A DNA stretch of 61,236 nucleotides from an uncultured Erysipelotrichaceae bacterium (lineage in GTDB: Bacteria > Bacillota_I > Bacilli_A > RF39 > UBA660), in assembly GCA_902801795.1 (NCBI GenBank), contig CADCJQ010000004.1, positions 1 through 61,236 on the forward strand. The letters are read 5' to 3'. The first letter of the stretch is position 1. Each line of letters starts with the position of its first letter. The translations under genes were made by a program, and so were the position numbers. The notes beneath the pieces are model-generated. The model did no database searches. It saw nothing but the letters and a program-made list of their open reading frames with translations, and was not told where the DNA came from. Below, piece by piece: positions 1 to 38,083 of the stretch.

Positions 1-608
1 CATTCAGTAGTTGTTAATACGGTTCTTCCATCAACCCAATCACTTGTTGTACCCATATTATCTGATTCTGTTCCATCGTAAGTATCGCTTATAGCTACTA
101 AATCACCATCAATATAAACTCTTAAAGTAATTGTTCCATTGACGTTAGTGTTTGGTGGAATATGACCTACAGCAAATTCACTGTCATTTTGAAGGATTGT
201 TCCATCTTCATATGAATATAATGTAACTGAATTTGCTGGTAAATCACTACTTGTTACATTAACACTTAATGGAATAGATTTTCCATTAGTAGTTATTCTG
301 ACATTACTAGCAGTTACTTTAAAATCAATTCCTCCAGGATAACTTGTGTTTCCTTGAATAGATACATTAACTGTCATAACATTATTAGTATCAGTTAAAA
401 TATCTCCTTTATCAATTGGAAAGACATTTTCTAATGTTACTGCTGTATAATTACTATTAAAATAGATATTCCCTACCGCAATACTATTAGGACTTCCTGT
501 TCTTGTATAGTTGAAGAATGCGATTGATACTCCTACTAAGGTACTAACCAACATAAATATCCCTAATACTATAATTAATATTTTTTTCTTTTTATTACTT
601 TGTTCCAT
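1..608 (-). CDS. Partial (runs off left edge) paralog of the 765-aa DGR target; SipW/TasA-like signal peptide surface protein
   Basis: ATG at 608 gives MEQSNKKRKILIIVLGIFMLVSTLVGVSIAFFNYTRTGSPNSIAVG...SDTYDGTESDNMGTTSDWVDGRTVLTTTE, open to the window edge. Colinear with 2799-3406 at offset 2798, no indels. Absent from the ORF track because it has no stop in the window. Confidence 0.9.
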   Translation of the reverse strand, partial: MEQSNKKKKILIIVLGIFMLVSTLVGVSIAFFNYTRTGSPNSIAVGNIYFNSNYTAVTLENVFPIDKGDILTDTNNVMTVNVSIQGNTSYPGGIDFKVTASNVRITTNGKSIPLSVNVTSSDLPANSVTLYSYEDGTILQNDSEFAVGHIPPNTNVNGTITLRVYIDGDLVAISDTYDGTESDNMGTTSDWVDGRTVLTTTE

Positions 609-625
609 AATATACCTCTTTCATC
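1..625. repeat. Long direct repeat, copy A (copy B 2799-3423)
   Basis: Near-identical nucleotide sequence, including RBS and start codon, at a constant 2798-nt offset. Confidence 0.9.
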
Positions 626-666
626 ATTTGAACAAATTACTATTCTATCTTTTACTTTATAACTAA

Positions 667-696
667 ATTATAAATGTTTTATATATAATAAGTCAA
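667..696 (-). promoter_or_regulatory. sigmaA-type promoter of the 1..608 paralog
   Basis: TTGACT-18 nt-TATAAT on - strand; same hexamers and spacing at 3466-3495 upstream of the 765-aa gene. Confidence 0.6.
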
Positions 697-706
697 TATT
701 TTTTCT

Positions 707-735
707 AAAAAAACTGCATACCATTTGCAGTTTTT
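707..735 (-). terminator. Rho-independent terminator closing the TR-spacer unit
   Basis: Inverted repeat aaaaactgca(709-718)/tgcagttttt(726-735), 7-nt loop, T-run on both strands. Confidence 0.7.
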
Positions 736-887
736 CACATAAATTAATGCGAGTATCTAGTTACTTTCAGAATATCCAATTGTAACATCTCCATTTATTG
801 TTTTAGTACTATGTACAAGGAATATAGTTTGTTTATAATCTTTTATAGTTAACTAACAATACCTAACTAATTAGTTTTTATAAGCTC
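736..887 (-). ncRNA. Putative DGR spacer (3' flank of the TR RNA)
   Basis: About 150 nt non-coding segment between TR end and terminator, in the position of the Sp region of characterised DGR RNAs; positional inference only. Confidence 0.4.
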
Positions 888-961
888 TAGGGCGATCACC
901 GTTCGCGTTAGTCGGATTGTTGCCGTTGCCATTGTTGTTCACGTTCCAGACGTTCGAGGTT
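888..961 (-). mobile_element. DGR template repeat (TR)
   Basis: - strand: acc tcg aac gtc tgg aac gtg aac aac aat ggc aac ggc aac aat ccg act aac gcg aac ggt gat cgc cct a (8 AAC + 2 AAT). Intergenic. Aligns to two VRs with mismatches almost only at TR adenines. Confidence 0.92.
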
Positions 962-998
962 CCTTCATTATACACCTATCAATCACTTGACATTATTT

Positions 999-1007
999 AT
1001 TATATCA
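999..1007 (-). promoter_or_regulatory. Extended -10 element upstream of TR
   Basis: TGATATAAT (TGnTATAAT) on - strand about 40 nt upstream of TR; no consensus -35. Confidence 0.45.
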
Positions 1008-1056
1008 TATAATTCGGGACGCATTCCATATTTGACACTTATTTACATTATTGAAA

Positions 1057-1087
1057 TCCCCATAGGGTTTAGAAAACCCTATGGGGA
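1057..1087. other. Perfect 14-bp hairpin/cruciform downstream of the DGR target gene
   Basis: tccccatagggttt-aga-aaaccctatgggga; 3-nt loop, no U-tract, about 20 nt after the stop codon. Confidence 0.75.
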
Positions 1088-1108
1088 ATAATGGTATATC
1101 CTGTTGTT

Positions 1109-3406
1109 TTATAATCCCACTACATACGGATCACTTTCTGTTCCAGATCCAGAAAGTATTTTAACCATAGATTTTAGATGAAGTGTAGGGCGACCACCGC
1201 TCGCGTTAGTCGGACTGCCGATGTCGCCGTAGCCACGGATGTGCACGAGCAAGACGTTCGAGGTTGAATATCTATTCATTAACCACATACTAATTGAATT
1301 AGAACTACCTCCTGCCTGTTGTGTTGCAAACATCTCGCCATACCTTGGCAACCCTATATTAAATGTACCAGTCTGACTTGTTTCATCACATACTTTTGTA
1401 TTCCCACTAGTTGTATTTGCACATACTGATAATTTATAATTATTATAACCACTTGTTCCTAGATAGTATGTGCCACTTGTAAATAATTCACCATACGTTT
1501 TTACTAACTTATCATAATAACCAGTATTACTAATATCACTATTATCTACTCTATTTAAATATTCATACCATGTATCTGTACCTATTGTTGTACCACTTCC
1601 CCATAATGTACTAGCAGTACCTGTACTTGTTGCGAATTTTCGTGTTCCTTTATTATCTGCATAATCCATTGCAATTATTTTGGTTTTATTATCTTCTACT
1701 CCAATTATTCTAAATACTTGTTCATTTTCATCATTTACAAGTTTTACATATTCGCCACTTAATCTTGTATTTATTAAGTCGTTAGTTTTTCCTATATCTT
1801 TATCCCCTACTATTTTATATGGGTTATCACGTGTTCCGACTCCGGTGAATTCCAATCCAGATTTTAGATAAATAGTAGGGCGAACACCGAACGCGCTAGC
1901 CGGATTGTCGTAGTCGCCGTTGCCACCGTAGTACACGCTCCAGACTTTCGAGGTATTATATGGATTTAATAGCCACCAAAAATATCCTATATTAAGATAT
2001 CCTGTACCACGAGTTGAGCCTGTACAAGCAGTACTTCCTATACAACGATAACTATTATAATATTCATAACTATTAAGTAATCCTACATTAGCAGTTACCA
2101 TATTATTTTCTAATGGTTTCGTGCTTATTGTGGTATTTGCTGGCATTGTAGCATTCCACCTCTTCGTTGTATCAATAAAATTGCTTGGTTGATATAAAGT
2201 ATCATAAAAATCTTCATTTAACCATTGATACATATATGATGTGGTATTTTCATCAGTATAGAAATTAACTTGTCCTGATTCATTAAATGCAATTAATGTG
2301 ATATTATTTTCAGTAATTAACTTCATTGTTCCATCAGGATATATAGCTGTTATTCGCCATAGTTTACCTGAATACCATACATAGTTAAAGTTGATACAAT
2401 CCTTGGTTCCTGAGAAATAAGTTATTTCATCTTCAACATATTTAATGTTTTGACATGTACCTGTTGCATGCTCATTGATAGCTTCTAATACTTTTTCTGA
2501 GCCTGATTGTTTTTTTATTACAGCATACAAAGTTGTATCACTATTAAAGTTAATGGTATCTCCTAATTTATATTCAACTTCCCCATCTGGTGTAGTACTC
2601 CATCCTCTAAAGTTAGGAACATCAAGAGATGCGGTTATGGTATCAGTTCCATCTCCTTTTAATGCTTGTCGTAATGGTGTACTTCCTAATAACTGATTTT
2701 TATTATAAGTTAGATAGCCGACAGCATTTGAATCATATACTCCTTCATCAGCAGATACTTTAACACTAAAACCAATTCCAGATGTTTGTAAAGCATTCCA
2801 TTCAGTAGTTGTTAATACTGTTCTTCCTCTTACCCAATCACTTGTTGTACCCATATTATCTGATTCTGTTCCATCATAGGTATCACTTACGGCTACTTGA
2901 TTACCATCAATATAAACTCTTAAAGTAATTGTTCCATTAACATTCGTATTTGGTGGAATATGACCTACAGCAAATTCTGAATCATTTTGAAGGATTGTAC
3001 CATCTTCATATGAATATAATGTAACTGAATTATTAGGTAAATCACTACTTGTTACATTAACACTTAAGGGAATATTTTTTCCATTAGTCGTTATTCTAAC
3101 ATTACTTGCCGTTACTTTATAATCAATTCCTCCAGGATAACTTGTGTTTCCTTGAATAGAAACATTAATTGTCATAACATTATCTGTATCAGTTAAAACA
3201 TTTGCTTTATCAATTGGAAAGACATTTTCTAATGTTACTGCCGTATAATTACTATTAAAATAGATATTCCCTACCGCAATACTATTAGGACTACCGGTTC
3301 TTGTATAGTTGAAGAAGGCTATTGATACTCCTACTAAAGTACTAACCAACATAAGTAGTCCTAATACCATAAATAAAGTTTTTTTCTTTTTATTACTTTG
3401 TTCCAT
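1109..3406 (-). CDS. DGR target surface protein: SipW-type signal peptide, TasA-like N module, InlB B-repeat-like linker, two tandem C-type-lectin-fold (DUF6273-like) domains each ending in a VR
   Basis: N-term GVSIAFFNYTRTG; FRGWSTTPDG...TTLYAV repeat; twice-repeated WRI/FRIIG...GL...W.L....G.RP...LKS...G.GT..PY domain; both domain ends match TR. Confidence 0.85.
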   Translation of the reverse strand: MEQSNKKKKTLFMVLGLLMLVSTLVGVSIAFFNYTRTGSPNSIAVGNIYFNSNYTAVTLENVFPIDKANVLTDTDNVMTINVSIQGNTSYPGGIDYKVTASNVRITTNGKNIPLSVNVTSSDLPNNSVTLYSYEDGTILQNDSEFAVGHIPPNTNVNGTITLRVYIDGNQVAVSDTYDGTESDNMGTTSDWVRGRTVLTTTEWNALQTSGIGFSVKVSADEGVYDSNAVGYLTYNKNQLLGSTPLRQALKGDGTDTITASLDVPNFRGWSTTPDGEVEYKLGDTINFNSDTTLYAVIKKQSGSEKVLEAINEHATGTCQNIKYVEDEITYFSGTKDCINFNYVWYSGKLWRITAIYPDGTMKLITENNITLIAFNESGQVNFYTDENTTSYMYQWLNEDFYDTLYQPSNFIDTTKRWNATMPANTTISTKPLENNMVTANVGLLNSYEYYNSYRCIGSTACTGSTRGTGYLNIGYFWWLLNPYNTSKVWSVYYGGNGDYDNPASAFGVRPTIYLKSGLEFTGVGTRDNPYKIVGDKDIGKTNDLINTRLSGEYVKLVNDENEQVFRIIGVEDNKTKIIAMDYADNKGTRKFATSTGTASTLWGSGTTIGTDTWYEYLNRVDNSDISNTGYYDKLVKTYGELFTSGTYYLGTSGYNNYKLSVCANTTSGNTKVCDETSQTGTFNIGLPRYGEMFATQQAGGSSNSISMWLMNRYSTSNVLLVHIRGYGDIGSPTNASGGRPTLHLKSMVKILSGSGTESDPYVVGL
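1186..1265 (-). repeat. DGR variable repeat VR1 (C-terminal domain)
   Basis: Versus TR: 11 substitutions at A, 1 at non-A (tgg>ttg), plus 2 extra NNC codons. 50/80 GC in an AT-rich gene. Encodes TSNVLLVHIRGYGDIGSPTNASGGRP. Confidence 0.9.
1876..1954 (-). repeat. DGR variable repeat VR2 (internal domain)
   Basis: Versus TR: 11 substitutions at A, 1 at non-A (aac>aaa), plus 2 extra NNC codons. Encodes TSKVWSVYYGGNGDYDNPASAFGVRP. Confidence 0.9.
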
Positions 3407-3465
3407 AATATACCTCTTTCATCTTCAAAACAAAACATTCAAACCTATTTCCCTCTACACTAAAA

Positions 3466-3495
3466 ATTATATACGCTTTTCTTATATTAAGTCAA
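3466..3495 (-). promoter_or_regulatory. sigmaA-type promoter of the 765-aa gene
   Basis: TTGACT-18 nt-TATAAT, conserved with 667-696. Confidence 0.6.
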
Positions 3496-3540
3496 TAAAT
3501 AATTTCATTTTTATACAATGAATTTACATGAGGTGTAAAG

Positions 3541-3603
3541 TTGATTAATAAAATTAAAGAATTAAGAAAAGATTATGATTTAAAACAAGTCCAAAATACA
3601 TAA
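3541..3603 (+). pseudogene. Truncated XRE-family HTH remnant
   Basis: GAGGTG RBS + TTG gives LINKIKELRKDYDLKQVQNT*, similar to the start of 3704..3919 (MYLKRLKDLREDHDLKQ). Confidence 0.55.
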
Positions 3604-3703
3604 ATACCTCATATCTTTTATAAATATATTATACACGATATTTATTGTATGTTAAAATATTTTATATTATTTCTGATAAATTTTTATTAGTGAGGTAATT
3701 AAT

Positions 3704-3919
3704 ATGTATTTAAAAAGATTAAAAGATTTACGAGAAGATCATGATTTAAAACAAAAGGATATTGCAGAACTTCTTAATATATCCCAACAATATTATAGTG
3801 AGTATGAATTAGGTAAAAGAAGTATTCCTATTGAAATACTAATAACTTTATCAAAATATTATAAAGTATCAGCTGATTATATATTAGAACTTTCTGATAT
3901 TAAGAAAAGAAGACAGTAA
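3704..3919 (+). CDS. XRE-family HTH transcriptional regulator
   Basis: LKDLRED..LKQ..IAE.LNISQQYYS.YE.G.R.IP HTH_3 pattern; GAGGT RBS. Confidence 0.9.
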   Translation: MYLKRLKDLREDHDLKQKDIAELLNISQQYYSEYELGKRSIPIEILITLSKYYKVSADYILELSDIKKRRQ

Positions 3920-3927
3920 TTAACAGC

Positions 3928-4578
3928 CTATCTTCTTTTTCTTATTTTAATATTCTCTATCATTAAATTAACTCTTTTTAGTTTATTCTTTAATGATAAA
4001 TTCGATAATATCTTTTTATTGGTATTATAGATTTCTTGATAATAATTTTTTACGATTTCATCTTGGAAATTAAGTTTACCAAAATAATAATTAATGTTAT
4101 CTTTTCCTTTAAGATAACAACTTACTAAATAATATTTTTCTTTTTCATAAACCATTACTTCATTATCTAATTTAAAACCATGTTTTGCTATTTCTTTTCG
4201 TGTTAAAGGAAAGTCATTATTTGGTGAAATAATTATCTTTTTGATATGAGGATATTTTTTGATATCTTTTAAAATATTAGTAATTGTTATTCCTCCCATA
4301 CCAGATATTACTATCGTATCTATTTCATCATCAATTGTTTCTAGTCCGTTACCTTGTTTTAAAAGAATTTTATCTTCTACATGATATTTTTTATTATTTT
4401 CCAAGGCTTTTTGAAGAGGTCCACTATTAATATCACTACTAATCATTTTTAAAACATTTTTATGAAGTACTAGGTCAATTCCTAATAATCCATGATCACA
4501 ACCAATATCAATTACTTTGTCATTTGAATTTATAAAAGCGCTTATTGTACTTAAGCGCTTATTTAATATTGTTTTCAT
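3928..4578 (-). CDS. trmK: tRNA (adenine22-N1)-methyltransferase
   Basis: DIGCDHG, DI..GPL, GNGL, ISGMGG motifs; synteny after rpoD. Confidence 0.85.
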   Translation of the reverse strand: MKTILNKRLSTISAFINSNDKVIDIGCDHGLLGIDLVLHKNVLKMISSDINSGPLQKALENNKKYHVEDKILLKQGNGLETIDDEIDTIVISGMGGITITNILKDIKKYPHIKKIIISPNNDFPLTRKEIAKHGFKLDNEVMVYEKEKYYLVSCYLKGKDNINYYFGKLNFQDEIVKNYYQEIYNTNKKILSNLSLKNKLKRVNLMIENIKIRKRR

Positions 4579-9144: not shown

Positions 9145-9328
9145 TCCTTCTTTCTACATATTAAAAAATCTATAATTTACAATAAATTACTTTGATAAAC
9201 ACTCTTTAATTTTAATAAATGACTACAAAAAATATTTACAAATGTCTTCAAAAAGATTTTTAACAGTATTAATAATAGCACATAAAATGATTAATATCAA
9301 GTACTTTTATCAATTGAACTTATTTATC

Positions 9329-10168
9329 CTATTTGATTATATTTTTATTAGTTAATTTCTTTTTACTTTCTTTTTCTAATACTTTTAGACTCTTTTCCGG
9401 GGTTGGTAATTCTTCTGGCATAGTTCCGCCAATATCTGCAATAGCACGTCTTACTTTTTTACCAACCTCATAATGTGTTTGATTTGCATTATTTTCCCCT
9501 TGGATATTATTTTTCTTTAATTTTTGTTCTGTTTGTGAAATTCTAAAAAGATTTACAATTAATTCATCACTCCCCATATTATCAAGAATATCTTCACGAT
9601 ATCTTAATCCTTTTCTTTTAGCAATATCATCCGCCGTTTCACCATTATATAGTCCTTTATATCCATAATTATGAAACTGATCAAAATTTTTAACACCAAC
9701 TTTACGAGCAGTTTGATTTAGCGAGTAATTACCTTTTCTAGTTAATTCTCTTTGATAAAATCTTTTTTCATCTTCTGTTAATAGCATATATTCTTTTTCA
9801 CTTAATTCTTGTTTTCGTGTCTGAACTGCAAAATATGTTTGCGCCTCAGCAATAACTTTTTTCCTACTATCACCATTTTGTGCAATTAAATAACAAGCAT
9901 AGCGAGTCAACTTATAATCAATTGAAGTTTGAATATTGCCATTACCTCCTTTTATCGGTTTACTGACATCAGTAAACTGTTCTAATATGCTATTATTACT
10001 TTGTTCACAAGCAATCTTAGCTTTATCAATTACTTTACTAAAATTTTGCCATTTGGTATATTCTAATAATGGCATTAATTCTCTAGCATACCAATACTCT
10101 CTCCCCTCTTCATCAATATGTTTAATACTTTCAAAAGTAGTATTATTACTTATTTCTAAATCATTCAT
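9329..10168 (-). CDS. dinD: DNA damage-inducible protein D (BRO-like)
   Basis: FESIKH..EYWYAREL..L.Y..W.NF, LTRYACYLIAQNGD.RK..IA.AQTYFAVQTR.QE, GGTMPEELP. Confidence 0.9.
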   Translation of the reverse strand: MNDLEISNNTTFESIKHIDEEGREYWYARELMPLLEYTKWQNFSKVIDKAKIACEQSNNSILEQFTDVSKPIKGGNGNIQTSIDYKLTRYACYLIAQNGDSRKKVIAEAQTYFAVQTRKQELSEKEYMLLTEDEKRFYQRELTRKGNYSLNQTARKVGVKNFDQFHNYGYKGLYNGETADDIAKRKGLRYREDILDNMGSDELIVNLFRISQTEQKLKKNNIQGENNANQTHYEVGKKVRRAIADIGGTMPEELPTPEKSLKVLEKESKKKLTNKNIIK

Positions 10169-10438
10169 TTATATTACCTCCCTTTGAATAGAATAGAAAA
10201 AGGGCATCCCACTTTGCTTAAGTAATAAATAATATTACCAAGTGGCATGCCCGAATAGATATATCTTTCTTGCCTAAGATATAAATTATCGACCTAAATT
10301 TAATTAGCGAGCAATTAGCAAGTAACTCTAACTAAAAAAATGATACCATAATATGCTAAGAGAAGTCAATAACAAATATTTATTTTTCTTCTTTGTTACT
10401 CCTATCAAATATAAATTATGGCATAGAAAAAGAGCTTT

Positions 10439-10855
10439 CTAGCTCCTTACTTCTTTAATTATCTTTTCCATTATGTTATTCGCTTCTATAATATCTTTTA
10501 AATCATGACTTTTAATCAATTCATTTGCTTTATTAATTTTACTATTTAAATTATCAAGAAAAGATTGTTCTACATTCACAAACTTTATTTTCTCCCATGT
10601 TCTTGCTAATTTATCGAATTTATCATATTCTTTATCAATTTCCTTACTAGTCTTCTTAACATAATCAATAATGTCTTTTAATTTACTAATTGCTTTCTTT
10701 AAATAAAATTCATCATTTTTATCTAATAATTCATTTATTTCTTTAATATCTTTATCAAAGATTTTATCAATCATTTCTTGAAATAAAGGATAATCATGCA
10801 TTACTTCATGAAATTCATCCTGTAATTTATCAATTTCGTTATAATAATAATCCAT
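10439..10855 (-). CDS. Hypothetical helical protein
   Basis: 138-aa ORF coupled to the upstream stop. Confidence 0.7.
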   Translation of the reverse strand: MDYYYNEIDKLQDEFHEVMHDYPLFQEMIDKIFDKDIKEINELLDKNDEFYLKKAISKLKDIIDYVKKTSKEIDKEYDKFDKLARTWEKIKFVNVEQSFLDNLNSKINKANELIKSHDLKDIIEANNIMEKIIKEVRS

Positions 10856-12246
10856 TATTTACTTCTTTCTAAGATATCTCTTGCTGATATAAGACCAGTT
10901 GCAGCGGCAATAACAATATTACCAGCTTTACCAGCACCATCTCCAATAAAATAGATATTATGTTCTTTTGCCTTAAATTTATTATCTGTTTCAATTTCAT
11001 TAGAAAAGAATTTAATCTCTGGTCCATAAAGAAGTGTTTCATCATTATTAACCCCGGGGATAATTCGATCAAGGGCTTCTAAACCATCTAAGATATTGGT
11101 AATAATACGATGAGGCATAACAAGGGCTAAATCCCCAGGAACTACATCTTTAAGAGTTGGGGTAATAAATAATTTACTAAGACGACTATCTCTTGTTCTT
11201 CGAAATTTCTTCAAGTCCCCTAATGTTTGTAAAATAGGCTTTGAATCTCCTAAACAATTAGCAATTTTCGCAATACATTCCCCATATTCACGAGTATTCG
11301 TAACTGGTTCTGTTAAATTAATTTTTGATATAAATGCAAAATTACTATTATTTGATTTAACATTTTTTAGAGCATGGCCATTAACACAAATATAACCATA
11401 ATAATTTTCTTTCGTAACATATCCTCCAGGATTAGTACAAAATGTCCTTATTTCATCACCATATGTTTTTGTTTTAATAAAAATTGATGGATCATAAATA
11501 ACACTACATAAATCTTCTAATAATTCACGTCTTACTTCTACACGAACACCTATTTCAATACTTTGTGATAAATAAGGTATTTGATATTTATCTGCTAAAG
11601 CTTGAATCCATTTCGCTCCTGTACGACCAGGGGCTACAATAACATTTTTACCTTGATATTCTATTTCTTCTCTTCCTTTTTTACATAAACAGGTAATCTT
11701 TTTCTTTTCATCAACGATATCACGAACAGTAATACTTTCAACTAATTCAACACCTTTTTCTTTTAAGAAATTAGTAATACCTGTAATATAACCTGGTAAA
11801 TTATCACTACCTAAATGTTTTTGTTTAATTAAAAGAAGTTTTGCGCCTGTTAGAGCCACTTGTTTTTCAATTCTTTTCGCTTCTTCCATATTAGTTGGAT
11901 AAACATCACTATCCATCCCAAAGAAATTAAAGATTTCTTCCGTATCATTCAATAGTTTTTCGGCATCATCACTTGACATATATTTATACAAATCACTTTT
12001 TCCTAATTTAGCAACATAATTAAGTTTACCATCAGAAAATGTTCCAGCTCCTCCAAATCCCGATAAAATACCACATGGATTACAGTTTTTACAATTTGTT
12101 CCAAATTTATTCATCGGACAAACACGATTTTCGGCAAACTTACCTTGATCAAGCAATAATACCTTTAATTTATCATTTTTTGTAATTAACTCATATGCTG
12201 CAAACAACCCTGCTGGACCAGCGCCAACAATTATAACATCATACAT
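10855..12246 (-). CDS. FAD-dependent oxidoreductase/dehydrogenase
   Basis: VIIVGAGPAG Rossmann motif, GGAGTFSDGKL, RTFCTNPGG, GDGAG. Confidence 0.88.
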   Translation of the reverse strand: MYDVIIVGAGPAGLFAAYELITKNDKLKVLLLDQGKFAENRVCPMNKFGTNCKNCNPCGILSGFGGAGTFSDGKLNYVAKLGKSDLYKYMSSDDAEKLLNDTEEIFNFFGMDSDVYPTNMEEAKRIEKQVALTGAKLLLIKQKHLGSDNLPGYITGITNFLKEKGVELVESITVRDIVDEKKKITCLCKKGREEIEYQGKNVIVAPGRTGAKWIQALADKYQIPYLSQSIEIGVRVEVRRELLEDLCSVIYDPSIFIKTKTYGDEIRTFCTNPGGYVTKENYYGYICVNGHALKNVKSNNSNFAFISKINLTEPVTNTREYGECIAKIANCLGDSKPILQTLGDLKKFRRTRDSRLSKLFITPTLKDVVPGDLALVMPHRIITNILDGLEALDRIIPGVNNDETLLYGPEIKFFSNEIETDNKFKAKEHNIYFIGDGAGKAGNIVIAAATGLISARDILERSK

Positions 12247-24863: not shown

Positions 24864-26819
24864 TTAACTCACCTTCAAAATGTACGGAGAGGTATATGAC
24901 CCATCTCCCCCATTTAACAATATAGTGGATTCTAGATTAAGGACTGGGCGAACGGCGTCACCGTAATCACCATGACTGAAGTATCCAACGTAACCGGCAC
25001 CGTTCCAATAAGCCACAATCTGCGGAAAGTTAGAAGACGGAGACAAAAACCAATTATAATAAGCATCGTTATTTAAAAACCAGTTATCTCCTTGGATTGC
25101 TGGATTACTTGCATTCCAGTAATTATTTAACGTACTTATCCAATAACTACTACTTGCAGCGTATCCAAAATCACTTGGATATGGTAAGGCAATTTTTCCT
25201 TCCCATTCACTACTATTGCCATTCCATACATTACAACTATTATTTTGTGAATTACTAGTTATACTTGCAGCACATTCTTGAACAATTGCTCTTTCCAAAT
25301 CATAAGTTTGACTTGCTGTTCCATAACTAGATATATTTACATTTCTTAAATAATATGTATCATCAACAATTAAATTCTTATATGTAGAATTTATTGTATT
25401 ATAATAACTTCCCGTATTGTTTTCATTTAACCAATATTGAAGTCCTGCTTTTGCCCAATTATTTTTGGTATTAGATGAATCACTATTCCATGTAATTGGA
25501 GCATATTTTGCATTAGCCATAGGACTACTTCCAAAATTTTGCTTTATCATATAAGTTGTATTATTTAATGCTGTATATTGAACACCTGTTCCAGAATCTG
25601 TCATAAAACTATCTGATGTTTTTATTGGTACATCTTTCATTATTTTTACTTTATCACCAAATACTCCAATTATTCTCCATAATTCATTATTAAATGAAAT
25701 ATAGTTTTTTACTGTTCCATCTTGTACTCCTGTTCCAGAAACTAATGTATATGTTGTCCCTGTTGGAGCATTACCACCTTGATATGCTGCAATATCAGCT
25801 GTTGGTGTATATAGTCCTGGAGGACCACCACCAAATACTACGGTTTCTGGACACTCATTTCCTTCAATTTGAAGATTATATGTTGTTCCACCATTTTCAT
25901 AAGAACAATATCTTCCTCCACCAGAGTAACGATATTCTCTTATTGTATCAGATCCACTTGCTAAAGCACCACTTGTGTTAATTGCTACAACACCATCGTT
26001 TCCAAGTCTTGAAATAACTTTATCACCTAGTGACATTGGTGGTTCATCAACCCATATTCCTTCTTGGGCTTCTACTTTAACTTGAAATGATACTCCATTA
26101 GTTCTTAAACTATTCCATTCACTTGTTGTTAATACAGTTCTTCCTTGTATCCAACCTTCATTTTCATCACTTGTATCAGTAATAGCAACTAAAGAATTAT
26201 CAAAATAAGCTTTAATAGTTATTTTTCCATTAATAGAGTTATCAGTATTTGTTGCATCAGGTGCAATAAAACCTACTAAAATATACTCATCTCCTGTTAT
26301 TGTATTACCAATTATTTTTTTATAGTGAGATGTTGTATAAGTATCTCTATTTGCAAAATAATCATTATCACTTGTTCCTAAAGTATTATTAGTACCACTT
26401 CCATTAGTTCCAACTTGTACATCTAAACTAATTGGTACTATTTTAGTAGTATTACCTGATGTAATTGAAGCAGTTGTATTAGCACTTGATACTAAATATT
26501 CAACCCCATCACTATAAGTCGTATGACCATTAATTAATATTTCCACAGTATCAATATTATCATCATCAACATTTGTTATTAAACCATTATTATCTTTTGT
26601 TATTGATATTGGAAATGCATTAGTAAGGTTAATATTACCATTTTGAGTTGTTTCAAAAGTAATATTACCTAATTTAAGAGTATTACTTTCACCTGTTCTT
26701 GTATAGTTGAAGAACGCATAGGTAAAACCTCCTAACATTGCTATTAAAATAAATAAACCTAAATATATTTGTAAATTAAGTTTTCTATTTTGTTTTCTTT
26801 CTTCATTTAATTCATTCAT
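24864..26819 (-). CDS. Paralogous SipW-signal surface protein with C-terminal CLec-like domain; remote DGR target candidate
   Basis: GGFTYAFFNYTRTG, GRTVLTTSEWN, LWRIIG, WFLSP...AVRPVLNL...G.GS...PY. Confidence 0.8.
   Translation of the reverse strand: MNELNEERKQNRKLNLQIYLGLFILIAMLGGFTYAFFNYTRTGESNTLKLGNITFETTQNGNINLTNAFPISITKDNNGLITNVDDDNIDTVEILINGHTTYSDGVEYLVSSANTTASITSGNTTKIVPISLDVQVGTNGSGTNNTLGTSDNDYFANRDTYTTSHYKKIIGNTITGDEYILVGFIAPDATNTDNSINGKITIKAYFDNSLVAITDTSDENEGWIQGRTVLTTSEWNSLRTNGVSFQVKVEAQEGIWVDEPPMSLGDKVISRLGNDGVVAINTSGALASGSDTIREYRYSGGGRYCSYENGGTTYNLQIEGNECPETVVFGGGPPGLYTPTADIAAYQGGNAPTGTTYTLVSGTGVQDGTVKNYISFNNELWRIIGVFGDKVKIMKDVPIKTSDSFMTDSGTGVQYTALNNTTYMIKQNFGSSPMANAKYAPITWNSDSSNTKNNWAKAGLQYWLNENNTGSYYNTINSTYKNLIVDDTYYLRNVNISSYGTASQTYDLERAIVQECAASITSNSQNNSCNVWNGNSSEWEGKIALPYPSDFGYAASSSYWISTLNNYWNASNPAIQGDNWFLNNDAYYNWFLSPSSNFPQIVAYWNGAGYVGYFSHGDYGDAVRPVLNLESTILLNGGDGSYTSPYILKVS
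24941..25045 (-). repeat. VR-like GC-rich patch (cognate TR not in window)
   Basis: Abrupt GC rise and NNC/NNT codons between WFLSP and VRP, at the position homologous to VR1/VR2. Confidence 0.6.
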
Positions 26820-35677: not shown

Positions 35678-38083
35678 TCAGCCTATTCTATATGGAGATG
35701 TCGCTGTTCCATCACCATTCACTACAGGCGTTCCAGGTTTAAGTGAAACGGCAGGACGAAGACCGAGGGAATTGTACATGTAGTAGTGGTCGATGAAGCC
35801 ATTGACCACGCTGAACTCGACGGCGCCGTAGTCGTTGAAATAAGGGGGCGACAAAGACCAATAATAATTTGATCCACTATTTAAATAGAATGTTCCTGTA
35901 CTACCTGATCCTCCTGCTAATACCATTTCATCTATTGTTAGCATTGCTACTGGATAATTCAACTTTTGATTTCCATTTGCATTTTGCCATGTAAATGAAT
36001 CGTTCTTATTTGTACATGCTAGGCTTGGAGAATGATTTGTGAAATATCTATCATATCCTGCATAATGTAATGCCCCATACGCTACATTCCCTGTTGGATC
36101 CCATCCTGCTTTAGTTGATATTGTTCTATCATTACACCATATTGTATCTTCTAATTGATTTGTATAACTTGTCATATTTGATGCATACCAACTTTCTATT
36201 TGTGTTTTAGCATTTGATGGGTTTGTATTCATTTGCATTTTCTCTATTGCTTTTTCTACACTATCTCCTCCAGTTAATGTTATGTAATAATTATTACTTG
36301 TTCCACTTACAGAATAGTAATACCTTATGCTACTACATGTTCCTTCTGCAGTTGTTAAATTACATGTATAATGGTGTGTTCCATCATATCCTACTTGGGC
36401 ACTCGTTAATGTATAATTTGTTCCATCCCATGTAAATCCTGTTCCATAATATGCTCCTGATGTTGTTGCTTCATTTGTCCATTCATATACTTCTCCCCAC
36501 ATGTATCCATTATATGCTAATGATTTATACAAATTTGTTCCTGAAAAGGCAAATGTATTTGTTCCATTTAACGTTATTTGTGTATCTGTTCCAGTATTAT
36601 CACAACCATTCGATGTTAATAATTCACCAGGACCAATCATTTTAATTTTAAATGTTATAGAGCATGTATCACTTGAACTTCCTGTGTAATCCATTTTTAT
36701 TTTATCAATACTAGACAACGTCCCAAAATCATTAGCTAAATCCATGGCAGAACCCCCACCACCTCCATAACTTTTTACACTTGTTCCATTCTTATAAAAT
36801 GCATATGACCCACCACAACTTGAACCACTAGTACCTGTCATTATCATAGTATAATTATCTCCTGCTGGCACAGTGAACTCTAAAGCTGGGTGTGAACCAT
36901 CATTTATTTCTATATTCCATGTATTATCAGTTGAGTCAAAATTCCATCTTGCATCACTATTTGTTGCATCCTTCACATAACTTGTTTCAGGTAATGAAAT
37001 ACTTTCATAAACAGGTCCTGCTTCACCATTATAAATTAATTTAACTCCACCTGTATCAGTAGTTCTTACTGCTTTCCAACATTTATTAGCAAACAAAACA
37101 TTATTATTTTCTACTGCTCCTCGATAATACAATATTGGATTTGCATCATTTTCCGTACCTGCTCTCATATAGACACCTTTTCCATTTGTACTACTTGAAG
37201 TCGTTGAGAAATCTACACCTGTTGAAGCACTTACAAATTCACTTGCAACATTATCCATTATTGGTTGATTGGTTGTTGGATTTAAATTTTCAGTTTTCAT
37301 CATTTCTTCAAGTGATCCTTTTACCCAAATTCCTTCATTGGCTTCTACCTTCACTTGAAATGATATACCTGTACTTGAAAATGCATTCCATTCTGTTGTT
37401 GTTAATACAGTTTTACTTTGTGCCATAGAGTTTGTTGTTCCCATATTATCTGATTCAGTACCATCATAAGTATCAGAAATAAGTATTTTATTTTTGTCTA
37501 AATATGCTTTAATTGTTAATTTTCCATTTGATATTCCTTCAGCAGTTCCGCTAGTTGTATTAGGCTTAATATAACCTACTAAAAGCATTTGATTTCCAAC
37601 TAGAGTATCCCCTACTAATTTTTTATACATAGTAGTATCTTTGCTTTCTCTTGCTGTAAAATAGTTATTACTAGATGTTCCTAAATTAGTTACTGTTACA
37701 TCTAAACTAATTGGAACTACTTTTCCTGTTGATGTATAAATATTTGTATTTTCACTAGAAACTAAATATTCTACACCTTGGGCATAATCGGTATCACCTT
37801 CAATTTCAATTTCTAATGTACCAACTTTTGTAGCGTCAGACATTTCTTCACTATTTGTTGGATCTATTGGAAATAAATTTGTTAAACTAATTGTTTTAGT
37901 TTGTCGTGTTACAAAACTTATTCTTCCTACACTAACAGTATTTGCCACACCTGTACGTGTGTAATTAAAAAATGAATATGTTACTCCAACCACACCTATT
38001 AACAAGATTGCTATCCCAACAATTGAAAAAATTATTTTTTTGTCTTTGATTTCTTTCATCATTTTAATACCTTTCTTTAACAT
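35678..38083 (-). CDS. Paralogous SipW-signal surface protein with C-terminal CLec-like domain; remote DGR target candidate
   Basis: GVTYSFFNYTRTG, SDTYDGTESDNMGTT, YYRG..ENNNVLFA..CWK..RT, WCNDR, YWSLSP...GLRPAVSLK..GDGT..PY. Confidence 0.82.
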   Translation of the reverse strand: MLKKGIKMMKEIKDKKIIFSIVGIAILLIGVVGVTYSFFNYTRTGVANTVSVGRISFVTRQTKTISLTNLFPIDPTNSEEMSDATKVGTLEIEIEGDTDYAQGVEYLVSSENTNIYTSTGKVVPISLDVTVTNLGTSSNNYFTARESKDTTMYKKLVGDTLVGNQMLLVGYIKPNTTSGTAEGISNGKLTIKAYLDKNKILISDTYDGTESDNMGTTNSMAQSKTVLTTTEWNAFSSTGISFQVKVEANEGIWVKGSLEEMMKTENLNPTTNQPIMDNVASEFVSASTGVDFSTTSSSTNGKGVYMRAGTENDANPILYYRGAVENNNVLFANKCWKAVRTTDTGGVKLIYNGEAGPVYESISLPETSYVKDATNSDARWNFDSTDNTWNIEINDGSHPALEFTVPAGDNYTMIMTGTSGSSCGGSYAFYKNGTSVKSYGGGGGSAMDLANDFGTLSSIDKIKMDYTGSSSDTCSITFKIKMIGPGELLTSNGCDNTGTDTQITLNGTNTFAFSGTNLYKSLAYNGYMWGEVYEWTNEATTSGAYYGTGFTWDGTNYTLTSAQVGYDGTHHYTCNLTTAEGTCSSIRYYYSVSGTSNNYYITLTGGDSVEKAIEKMQMNTNPSNAKTQIESWYASNMTSYTNQLEDTIWCNDRTISTKAGWDPTGNVAYGALHYAGYDRYFTNHSPSLACTNKNDSFTWQNANGNQKLNYPVAMLTIDEMVLAGGSGSTGTFYLNSGSNYYWSLSPPYFNDYGAVEFSVVNGFIDHYYMYNSLGLRPAVSLKPGTPVVNGDGTATSPYRIG
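35747..35853 (-). repeat. VR-like patch (cognate TR not in window)
   Basis: 20 of 25 consecutive codons (FNDYGAVEFSVVNGFIDHYYMYNSL) end in C and none in A, unlike the A/T-ending rest of the gene. Confidence 0.75.

What the first reader, a model, noticed from the sequence alone, without database searches (positions are those of the whole stretch)
707..1954. Stand-alone DGR template RNA cassette with no RT or avd, embedded between tandem target genes
Seen: an intergenic 74-nt AAC-rich TR (888-961) whose differences from two coding repeats are 11/12 and 11/12 at adenines. It has an extended -10 upstream, then about 150 nt of spacer and a terminator, with the next target paralog beyond that. There is no room for an RT or avd gene at this locus and none is in the 61 kb window. 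Known: canonical DGRs (e.g. Bordetella BPP-1) are target-avd-TR-RT cassettes with A-specific mutagenesis. Inferred: the TR is a separately transcribed ncRNA served in trans by a distant RT, i.e. a modular, decoupled DGR. It could instead be a relic of a cassette that lost its RT.
Basis: partly seen in the sequence, partly recalled or inferred. Interest (0 to 1): 0.93.

Follow-up and report, generated by a model that had tools for sequence, protein, structure and literature searches.

The report
Stand-alone DGR template RNA cassette
A short non-coding template for targeted hypermutation sits beside the surface-protein gene it rewrites, with no reverse transcriptase at the locus, so the enzyme must come from elsewhere in the genome or has been lost.

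Summary
Window 888-961 (- strand) is a real DGR template repeat (TR). Against VR1 (1186-1265) it differs at 11 of 26 adenines and 2 of 50 other sites. Against VR2 (1875-1954) it differs at 11 of 24 adenines and 1 of 49 other sites. Both VRs lie in one 765-aa DUF6273 gene. The TR is 6 nt shorter than both VRs.

The window has no RT. The 71%-complete MAG has one RT, in a canonical target-TR-avd-RT cassette on contig C3. A second RT-less cassette lies on contig C9. Its spacer is 92% identical, more conserved than third codon positions of the adjacent genes (76.8%), and a hairpin just after the TR keeps its pairing.

Against service by the C3 RT:
- The C3 spacer RNA family is conserved with covariation in 12 units from 4 genomes.
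- The C4 and C9 spacers do not match it: 8.3 and 6.0 bits against 76.6.
- The C9 TR has no clean VR.
- Only 887 nt lie downstream of the TR before the contig ends.

Verdict: a genuine stand-alone TR module that was used recently. Its RT partner is unresolved. It is a new variant of a known kind.

The parts
888..961 (-). Template repeat (TR4), 74 nt, AAC-rich and non-coding
   Evidence: 22 of 25 mismatches to the two VRs fall on TR adenines. No ORF of 50 aa or more here.
967..974 (-). Extended -10 element TGTATAAT, about 6 nt upstream of the TR. The C9 cassette has TGTATAGT at the same place.
   Evidence: Read; conserved in the C4/C9 alignment. Not called by the sigma-70 scan, because there is no -35.
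741..887 (-). Spacer downstream of the TR. It is 92% identical to the C9 copy over 162 nt (about 733-893). A hairpin lies about 16 nt after the TR (about 845-868).
   Evidence: 91.98% over 162 nt; the alignment shows G-C in C4 becoming A-U in C9, and inner stem changes keep the pairing; spacer 149/162 identical against 238/310 at third codon positions, p 2.6e-5. There is no excess folding energy (z 0.13).
706..736 (-). Hairpin (CUGCA/UGCAG extended by A-U pairs) followed by a U-run: a likely intrinsic terminator of the TR RNA. A 35-nt look-alike follows another paralog on contig C13.
   Evidence: helix in the MFE and the centroid; C13:364-398, 91%. The scan did not call it under its criteria.
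1186..1265 (-). VR1, 80 nt, residues about 715-741 of the 765-aa target
1875..1954 (-). VR2, 80 nt, residues about 485-511, at the C-terminal end of the DUF6273 match (residues 363-516)
   Evidence: VRs at the C-terminus of DUF6273 are reported for phage DGR targets (PMC11792537, passages read).
1109..3406 (-). Target gene A, 765 aa: N-terminal signal or anchor segment, a List_Bact_rpt-like piece, and two VR-bearing modules
   Evidence: DUF6273 E 8.9e-7; Flg_new below its cut-off.
1058..1086 (.). G+C-rich palindromic hairpin between the stop of gene A and the TR promoter. It probably ends gene A's transcript.
   Evidence: Read. Self-match (1057-1087). Not called.
3..608 (-). Paralogous target gene B. 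Its first 202 codons are 89-93% identical to gene A at the nucleotide level. It is cut by the contig end, so its VRs are not in the window.
   Evidence: Promoter-like site at 696->667 (11 of 12).

Best explanation
Window 706-974 (- strand) is a small, separately transcribed DGR template RNA gene, about 255 nt: extended -10, 74-nt TR, about 147-nt spacer, terminator hairpin. A DGR reverse transcriptase with Avd, encoded somewhere other than this locus, copied the TR into adenine-mutagenised cDNA. That cDNA replaced both variable regions of the upstream DUF6273 surface-protein gene.

Shown: the TR/VR relation, the absence of an RT at the locus, a second RT-less copy of the module, and conservation of the spacer above a neutral proxy.

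Inferred: transcription as its own unit, use in trans, and that the module is still under selection.

Unresolved: which RT serves it. The only RT in the assembly (contig C3) carries a different, conserved spacer RNA. I put that RT at about 0.2 and an unassembled RT at about 0.3 within this reading.
For: - A-specific divergence is nearly as clean as in the genome's canonical cassette. TR4/VR1: 11 of 26 A sites against 2 of 50 other sites. TR4/VR2: 11 of 24 against 1 of 49. TR3/VR3: 24 of 40 against 1 of 80.
- One intact RT (491 aa, RVT_1 plus MutS_I) with an avd-like gene is present in the genome.
- The same promoter-TR-spacer module sits after another paralog on contig C9, followed by a tryptophanyl-tRNA synthetase-like gene and no RT anywhere on that 70-kb contig.
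- The spacer is 149/162 identical between C4 and C9. Third codon positions of the best-conserved 930 nt of the adjacent genes are 76.8% identical (Fisher p 2.6e-5), and the C-terminal coding parts are 58-72% identical.
- The hairpin 16 nt after the TR keeps its pairing through changes on both sides. This is the position where Avd-binding stem-loops are reported in 207 of 278 DGRs (bioRxiv 10.1101/2023.10.23.563531, section 10 read).
- Each TR follows the scaffold of its own neighbouring gene's VRs although the spacers are near-identical.
- Contigs of other ruminant-gut samples carry the TR region with 1-3 changed letters, while their contigs break or become unalignable inside the VRs. X2 breaks at 1214|1278. 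X3 breaks at 1899|1949 and has a joint 1875->1962.
- Relatives carry several TR+spacer units per avd-RT: G156 and G004.
Against: - The TR is 6 nt shorter than both VRs, so this exact TR cannot have been the last donor. No homing has happened since the deletion in this lineage.
- The spacer of the only RT's own TR belongs to a family conserved across 12 units from 4 genomes. 21 of its 45 predicted pairs have compensatory changes.
- An HMM of that family finds only C3 in the genome. Its covariance model scores C3 at 76.6 bits and the C4 and C9 spacers at 8.3 and 6.0 bits (E 0.76 and 2.4 in 8.6 kb), which is noise level.
- An HMM of the other spacer type seen in the genus (G004) also finds nothing on C4 or C9, even at E<=100 in a 2.5-kb target.
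- The RNA has no excess folding energy (z 0.13 for C4 and 0.84 for C9, against -2.26 for C3).
- The sister TR on C9 differs from every VR at 9-20 of about 60 non-A sites, and it lacks the terminal hairpin.
- No C4-like cassette was found in 60 relatives, in 8 gene-A-like loci of 4 genomes of the genus, or in two public collections.
- Transcription is untested.
Confidence: 0.5

Rival explanations
1. Recently orphaned relic. The cassette once worked with an RT that this lineage has lost. TR and VRs are now drifting, and the 6-nt deletion in the TR is the first visible decay.
For: - 6-nt indel against both VRs.
- The spacer is unrelated to the spacer family of the one RT present.
- The C9 copy is decayed: it has no cognate VR and no terminal hairpin.
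- No significant fold.
- About 25 VR-like modules in the genome lack any TR.
- In a same-genus genome, gene-A-like VRs have no TR at all.
- Over half of candidate DGRs were discarded as defective in a published survey (PMC5758913, passages read).
Against: - Only 1-2 non-A differences in about 50 sites per VR.
- The spacer is more conserved than third codon positions, and hairpin pairing is retained.
- The -10 element is kept in both copies.
- A contig of another sample has 6 extra letters and 1 changed letter over 824-953. This fits a full-length TR allele in the population, though the place of the insertion was not shown (record 19).
Confidence: 0.3
2. An ordinary cis cassette broken by assembly. 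The avd-RT pair lies just beyond gene B, off the contig end or in the missing 29% of the genome, and the locus is a multi-target DGR with the TR between two targets.
For: - The contig starts 887 nt downstream of the TR, inside gene B.
- The MAG is 71% complete in 81 contigs.
- Repeated paralogs and TR arrays end contigs in relatives: G156 C16 and C31.
- The spacer fits neither known RT-linked type, as expected if a third RT type is missing.
Against: - No RT on any of the 81 contigs except C3, including contigs that begin inside paralog C-termini such as C13, C28 and C61.
- The C9 cassette has the same spacer and is certainly RT-less on both sides.
- A terminator-like hairpin and the promoter of gene B follow the spacer directly.
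Confidence: 0.15
3. Not a DGR element. The intergenic copy is a pseudogenised fragment of a VR module, and the adenine bias is chance or compositional.
For: The genome is 26% G+C, so drift towards A/T could enrich A in a non-coding copy.
Against: - The bias is strand-specific. Changes sit at TR A sites, not at T sites, on the coding strand.
- Fisher p is 6.5e-5 and 6.8e-6 in two independent VRs.
- The TR has the AAC/AAT codon runs typical of TRs.
- The pattern matches the bona fide TR3/VR3 pair of the same genome.
Confidence: 0.03

Closest known systems
Canonical DGR cassette (Bordetella phage BPP-1: target-avd-TR-RT)
   Same: A non-coding, AAC-rich TR. A VR at the C-terminal end of a ligand-binding module. 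Differences confined to TR adenines. A G+C-rich shared 3' end after which TR and VR diverge.
   Different: No avd or RT at the locus. The TR has its own promoter-like and terminator-like elements. One TR matches two VRs inside one gene. The TR is 6 nt shorter than the VRs. In BPP-1 the RNA flanking the TR is required for cDNA synthesis by bRT-Avd (abstracts of PMC6182149 in the listing and of 10.1101/2023.10.23.563531). Here the flank does not resemble that of the genome's own RT-linked TR.
DGRs with remote or non-adjacent targets (Treponema denticola; survey of 372 DGRs, PMC5758913)
   Same: One RT acts on sites far from its gene. 45 of 372 DGRs have non-adjacent targets, some more than 100 kb away (passages read).
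   Different: In those cases the TR stays with the RT and only the VR is remote. Here the TR itself sits at the target and the RT is elsewhere. My term search of that paper found 0 occurrences of 'two TRs' and 'without an RT'. Its supplements were not seen.
Incomplete DGR loci of Thiohalocapsa PB-PSB1 (PMC10907252)
   Same: Loci lacking DGR components were found diversified. The authors considered diversification 'in trans by an RT and/or TR encoded elsewhere' (passages read).
   Different: There the trans cases are explained by VRs matching the TR of a complete DGR, or by structural variants with an intact RT. Here the locus keeps a private TR with a private spacer class that recurs at a second RT-less locus.
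Trichodesmium erythraeum TR-RNA (PMC4143802)
   Same: The TR is transcribed from its own promoter as an abundant 265-nt ncRNA (passages read), close to the roughly 255 nt predicted here.
   Different: That TR lies next to its RT gene and serves 12 VRs. Here there is no RT beside it and there are two VRs in one gene.
RT-linked TR+spacer units of relatives (G156, G004, G007, G238 and own contig C3)
   Same: The TR comes as a unit with about 180-215 nt of downstream RNA. Units are multiplied: 5 and 4 units in tandem on G156 C16 and C31, and 6 in G004.
   Different: Those units are tandem, adjacent to avd-RT, and carry the RT-type spacer. The window's unit is dispersed, sits next to its target, and carries an unrelated spacer.

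Membership tests
DGR template repeat / variable repeat pair | TR and VR differ (almost) only at TR adenines | tested here: met
   VR1 has 11 mismatches at A and 2 elsewhere. VR2 has 11 at A and 1 elsewhere. p is 6.5e-5 and 6.8e-6.
DGR template repeat / variable repeat pair | The TR is non-coding. The VR lies at the 3' end of a target ORF or of its variable-fold domain. | tested here: met
   no ORF over the TR. VR2 lies at the C-terminal end of the DUF6273 match. VR1 is 24 codons before the stop.
DGR template repeat / variable repeat pair | TR and VR are collinear and of equal length, so that homing replaces the VR exactly | tested here: not met
   a 6-nt gap against both VRs in this assembly. 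A contig of sample X3 has 6 extra letters somewhere in 824-953, but the position was not shown.
DGR template repeat / variable repeat pair | A shared G+C-rich 3' end (IMH in the VR, IMH* in the TR), followed by divergence | tested here: met
   GGTG-N-TCGCCCTA is shared, then the TR reads GAGCTTAT and the VRs read CACTTCAT and CTATTTAT. Function as an IMH was not tested.
Complete DGR cassette | A DGR-clade RT gene within the cassette | tested here: not met
   one RVT_1 match in 81 contigs, on C3 and not in the window; tblastn with the G004 RT finds only C3.
Complete DGR cassette | An accessory gene (Avd, with or without MSL) within the cassette | tested here: not met
   the avd of C3 and the avd and MSL of G004 hit only the C3 locus. 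The six-frame bAvd Pfam search found nothing, not even the C3 avd, so that search is insensitive.
Spacer RNA family of the genome's own RT (RT-MutS_I clade) | Match to the covariance model or HMM built from 12 RT-linked units | tested here: not met
   (nhmmer): only C3. C3 scores 76.6 bits, C4 8.3 bits (E 0.76), C9 6.0 bits (E 2.4); only C3 in the whole genome.
Spacer type of the same-genus DGR with separate MSL (G004) | Match to an HMM of 4 full G004 spacers plus one from G035 | tested here: not met
   no hit on C4 or C9 at E<=100 in a 2.5-kb target, and none in the genome at E<=10.
Active DGR | VR hypervariable, TR invariant within and between populations, with variation at TR-A positions | tested here: inconclusive
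   One search used contigs only. TR-region contigs are near-identical in X2, X3 and X4. Contigs break or become unalignable inside VR1 and VR2 in X2 and X3. Per-position VR differences were not shown and no raw reads were available.
Active DGR | The TR RNA is expressed | not testable with these tools
   no RNA holder was listed.
DGR target protein | The variable region lies in a C-type-lectin-like or DUF6273 module | tested here: inconclusive
   Pfam DUF6273 E 8.9e-7 for module 1. The AlphaFold model of module 2 had mean pLDDT 53.6, too poor for a fold search. No PDB relative by sequence.

The most novel reading that the evidence does not exclude
In this small-genome rumen bacterium, DGR templates are free-standing RNA genes placed next to the genes they rewrite. 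They carry a spacer RNA class unrelated to the one beside the genome's only RT. Either one Avd-RT(-MutS-like) enzyme accepts two unrelated flanking RNAs, or an RT of a type not yet seen next to any TR serves them. Together with the tandem TR+spacer arrays of relatives, this would make 'TR+spacer' an independently multiplying and relocating module of DGRs.
Probability: 0.2. Interest if true: 0.8.

Novelty: new variant of a known kind. Interest (0 to 1): 0.6.

Why it matters
DGR biology assumes that TR, Avd and RT travel together and that the RNA flanking the TR is what the RT-Avd complex recognises. A TR module that lives apart from any RT, exists in two copies and has a conserved private spacer offers a natural test. 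The question is whether template supply can be uncoupled from the enzyme, and how specific RT-Avd is for its flanking RNA. That matters for how one enzyme could diversify many surface proteins; this genome has about 25 VR-like modules. It also matters for engineering DGRs with several templates. If the cassette is only a fresh relic, it instead dates the loss of a DGR and shows how quickly TR/VR pairs decay.

Tried and rejected
- **Spacer homology.** By eye I saw short look-alikes between the C4/C9 spacer and RT-linked spacers (AGATGY-N6-TGGA; AAGATT..AAACAA..TTCCTTG). The first regex occurs 32 times in 3.02 Mb of the genome. HMM and covariance-model tests gave no support, so I do not claim homology.
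- **Other copies of the spacer.** None found in 60 relatives at E<=0.001 beyond AT-rich chance hits. No exact 33-mer or gapped pattern in metagenome contigs. No 22-mer in genome contigs.
- **Rfam.** No family over window 1-4000 at E<=0.1. The two hits, at E 0.13 and 0.34, are eukaryotic families and are taken as chance.
- **Strict genome-wide A-only TR/VR scan** (48-nt windows, at most 2 non-A mismatches). It recovered only TR3/VR3 plus low-complexity artefacts. It missed TR4 because of the 6-nt gap. It was not run on shorter windows.
- **Expression.** No RNA holder was listed.
- **Reads.** All four runs laid were Logan contigs. Only the best-supported rows were printed (366 other-letter rows and 17 indel rows were not shown), so per-position VR variation and the place of the 6-letter insertion in X3 record 19 could not be read.
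- **Structure.** The AlphaFold2 model of module 2, from a 13-row alignment, had mean pLDDT 53.6. No fold search was run on it.
- **PDB by sequence.** No match at E<=1.
- **NCBIfam.** Nothing for the two target proteins.
- **bAvd Pfam six-frame search of the genome.** No match, not even the C3 avd, so it says nothing.
- **Gene-A-like targets elsewhere.** The 3 loci of genome contigs and the 8 loci of 4 same-genus genomes have no TR within the sequence held downstream. Some of these loci may be the same places found twice.
- **Supplements** of the cited papers were not seen. Table S1 and Data 3 of PMC5758913 may list multi-TR or RT-less architectures.
- **Literature.** Five full-text searches found no description of a TR with its own spacer located apart from any RT, or of tandem TR+spacer arrays. 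This holds for that library and those terms only.
- **First submission.** One search was returned because one schema field (confidence) was missing. This report is the same text with that field added.
Full report
**Setting.** The window is a whole contig (C4, 61,236 nt) of a 1.51-Mb, 81-contig assembly that is 26% G+C and rated 71% complete. All features of the finding lie on the - strand. In order they are:
- gene A (3406->1109, 765 aa);
- a G+C-rich hairpin (1086->1058);
- an extended -10 (974->967);
- the TR (961->888);
- a spacer (887->741);
- a hairpin plus U-run (about 736->706);
- the promoter-like site and start of paralog gene B (696->667; 608->3), which runs off the contig.

**Observation.** The TR aligns with two 80-nt segments of gene A.
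- VR1 (1265->1186): 13 mismatches, 11 at the 26 TR adenines and 2 at the 50 other sites.
- VR2 (1954->1875): 12 mismatches, 11 at 24 adenines and 1 at 49 other sites.
- Fisher p is 6.5e-5 and 6.8e-6.

The genome's canonical pair, TR3/VR3 on contig C3, gives 24 of 40 A sites against 1 of 80 other sites by the same count. The adenine-specific relation is therefore real, and almost as clean as in a complete cassette.

Both VRs belong to one gene, at the ends of its two modules. VR2 sits at the C-terminal end of the Pfam DUF6273 match, as reported for phage DGR targets (PMC11792537, passages). And the TR is 6 nt shorter than both VRs. The extra VR codons (ATC GGC and TAC GAC) are all AAC-derivable, so the donor TR had two more AAC-type codons.

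The 1,684-nt contig of run X1 (863-2546) is identical to the window, so the short TR is not an error of this assembly alone. A 136-nt contig of run X3 covers 824-953 with 1 changed letter and 6 extra letters. This fits a full-length TR allele, but the position of the insertion was not printed.

**Where the enzyme is.** A six-frame RVT_1 search of all contigs finds one RT, on C3. That locus is a textbook cassette: serine recombinase, 756-aa target with VR, TR, a 121-aa avd-like gene, and a 491-aa RT with a C-terminal MutS_I domain. The avd-like gene hits bAvd at E 6e-4 and DivGenRetAVD at E 9.8e-5, both below their cut-offs. An ATPase gene and a further paralog follow. tblastn with the RT, avd and MutS-like proteins of a same-genus DGR (G004) hits only this locus.

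However, only 887 nt follow the TR before the contig ends, and 29% of the genome is missing.

**A second stand-alone module.** The 162 nt after the TR recur at 92% identity on contig C9. They sit behind another two-VR DUF6273 paralog and a different TR (TR9), and are followed by a tryptophanyl-tRNA synthetase-like gene. C9 is 70 kb and holds no RT. The two modules share the -10 element (TGTATAAT and TGTATAGT) and the spacer, but not the flanks.

The spacer is 149/162 identical. Third codon positions in the best-conserved 930 nt of the adjacent genes are 76.8% identical (p 2.6e-5), and the neighbouring C-terminal coding parts are only 58-72% identical. The hairpin about 16 nt after the TR differs at several positions between the copies yet pairs in both: G-C becomes A-U, and the inner stem is re-formed. 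A stem-loop just downstream of the TR is where Avd binds in the Bordetella RNP, and one is predicted in 207 of 278 DGRs (10.1101/2023.10.23.563531, abstract and section 10).

These points argue for constraint on the RNA. A recent copy or gene conversion of the spacer is the alternative.

**Evidence against the simple 'served by the distant RT' reading.** The TR next to the C3 RT is followed by a spacer that I could align with 11 other RT-linked units from three other genomes of the family (G007, G238, G156). The set shares a 24-nt core, GTGAAACAGATGYRRYTCTATGGA, and three helices. 21 of 45 predicted pairs show compensatory changes.
- An HMM of this family finds only C3 in the genome.
- A covariance model scores C3 at 76.6 bits. 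It scores the C4 and C9 spacers at 8.3 and 6.0 bits (E 0.76 and 2.4 in 8.6 kb), among dozens of equal chance hits.
- The other spacer type in the genus (G004, with a separate MutS-like gene) also fails to match.

The RNA flanking the TR is essential and intimately bound by bRT-Avd in the one system studied (abstracts of PMC6182149 in the listing and of 10.1101/2023.10.23.563531). All units of the G156 and G004 arrays keep their RT-type spacer. A module meant for the C3 enzyme would therefore be expected to carry the C3-type spacer, and this one does not.

Further points against:
- No excess folding energy (z 0.13 and 0.84, against -2.26 for C3).
- TR9 has no clean VR: 9-20 non-A mismatches in about 60 sites against every VR.
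- The module was not found in 60 relatives, in gene-A-like loci of the genus, or in the public collections scanned.

**Population data.** 20 of the 21 runs listed hold part of the stretch. Those with an organism label are animal-gut metagenomes (bovine, sheep, goat or unspecified gut) or a coded organism; several carry no label. All are kept as contigs, and none is on record as RNA. In the four runs laid, contigs over the TR and spacer differ by 1-3 letters (X2 record 11, X3 records 17 and 19, X4 record 25). Contigs stop inside the VRs: X2 at 1214|1278 and X3 at 1899|1949. One X3 contig joins 1875 to 1962 across unalignable letters. Another joins TR-like sequence (to 916) to the flank of VR2 (from 1955) at depth 2. 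This is what VR-specific variation between strains would look like, but it is thin and gives no per-position pattern. I count it as suggestive only.

**Conclusion.** The element is a genuine DGR template, organised as a free-standing promoter-TR-spacer-terminator module beside its two-VR target. It was used for mutagenic homing recently enough that non-A sites differ by only 2-4%.
- Most likely (0.5): it is, or until very recently was, a functional trans-served template under selection. The partner RT is unresolved: the C3 RT about 0.2, an unassembled RT about 0.3.
- A fresh relic: 0.3.
- A cis RT hidden by the contig break: 0.15.

Remote VRs, incomplete DGR loci and self-promoted TR RNAs are all in print (PMC5758913, PMC10907252, PMC4143802; passages read). 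In five full-text searches I found no description of a private TR with a private, duplicated spacer class apart from any RT. I therefore rate it a new variant of a known kind.

Noticed in passing
L044 (G156:C16) 1-2060; L045 (G156:C31) about 9280-11300; L059 (G156:C43) about 1150-1450: Tandem arrays of complete TR+spacer units, each 385-500 nt. Five units lie directly upstream of avd (2078-2449) and RT (2427-3914) on C16, four lie at the end of C31, and at least one lies on C43. Each unit has a different AAC-rich TR and the conserved RT-type spacer. A BLAST search with one TR found the other units but no VR. I found no description of such arrays in my literature searches.
   Followed up: partly
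L046 (G004:C4) 9300-11100, - strand: A same-genus DGR with six TR-like units between the target and avd/MSL/RT. The first unit is a clean TR for the adjacent VR (10 of 10 differences at TR adenines, read). The following units are adenine-poor and differ from one another. Two have truncated spacers.
   Followed up: partly
L044 1790-1870: The TR-like part of the array unit nearest avd in G156 is almost free of adenines. It looks like a mutagenised copy sitting in a TR position.
   Followed up: no
window 35684-35893 and 24876-25094 (- strand); own genome contigs C3, C7, C9, C11-C14, C20, C24, C30, C37, C41, C54, C61: About 25 G+C-rich, VR-like segments (at least 52% G+C in a 26% G+C genome) lie at the ends of modules in a large paralog family of surface proteins. 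Only three of them have a cognate TR in the assembly. The window itself holds one of a different scaffold type (ending ...GLRPAVSLKPG) with no TR.
   Followed up: partly
L002 7790-9265 (own contig C3): The DGR RT is fused to a MutS domain I-like C-terminus (Pfam MutS_I, E 1.1e-6, residues 359-404). In G004 the homologous piece is a separate 132-aa gene between avd and RT. MutS-like accessory genes are known in DGRs (PMC5758913). I did not check whether the fusion is described.
   Followed up: partly
L003 (own contig C9) 6375-6455, - strand: The second stand-alone TR (TR9) encodes the scaffold of its neighbour's VRs but differs from every VR in the genome at 15-33% of non-adenine sites. Its closest match is a VR at the start of contig C13: 11 of 22 A sites and 9 of 60 other sites differ.
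   Followed up: yes
L002 1-4200 (own contig C3): The complete DGR lies just downstream of a tRNA-like G+C island and a 626-aa large serine recombinase. It may therefore sit on an integrated element.
   Followed up: no
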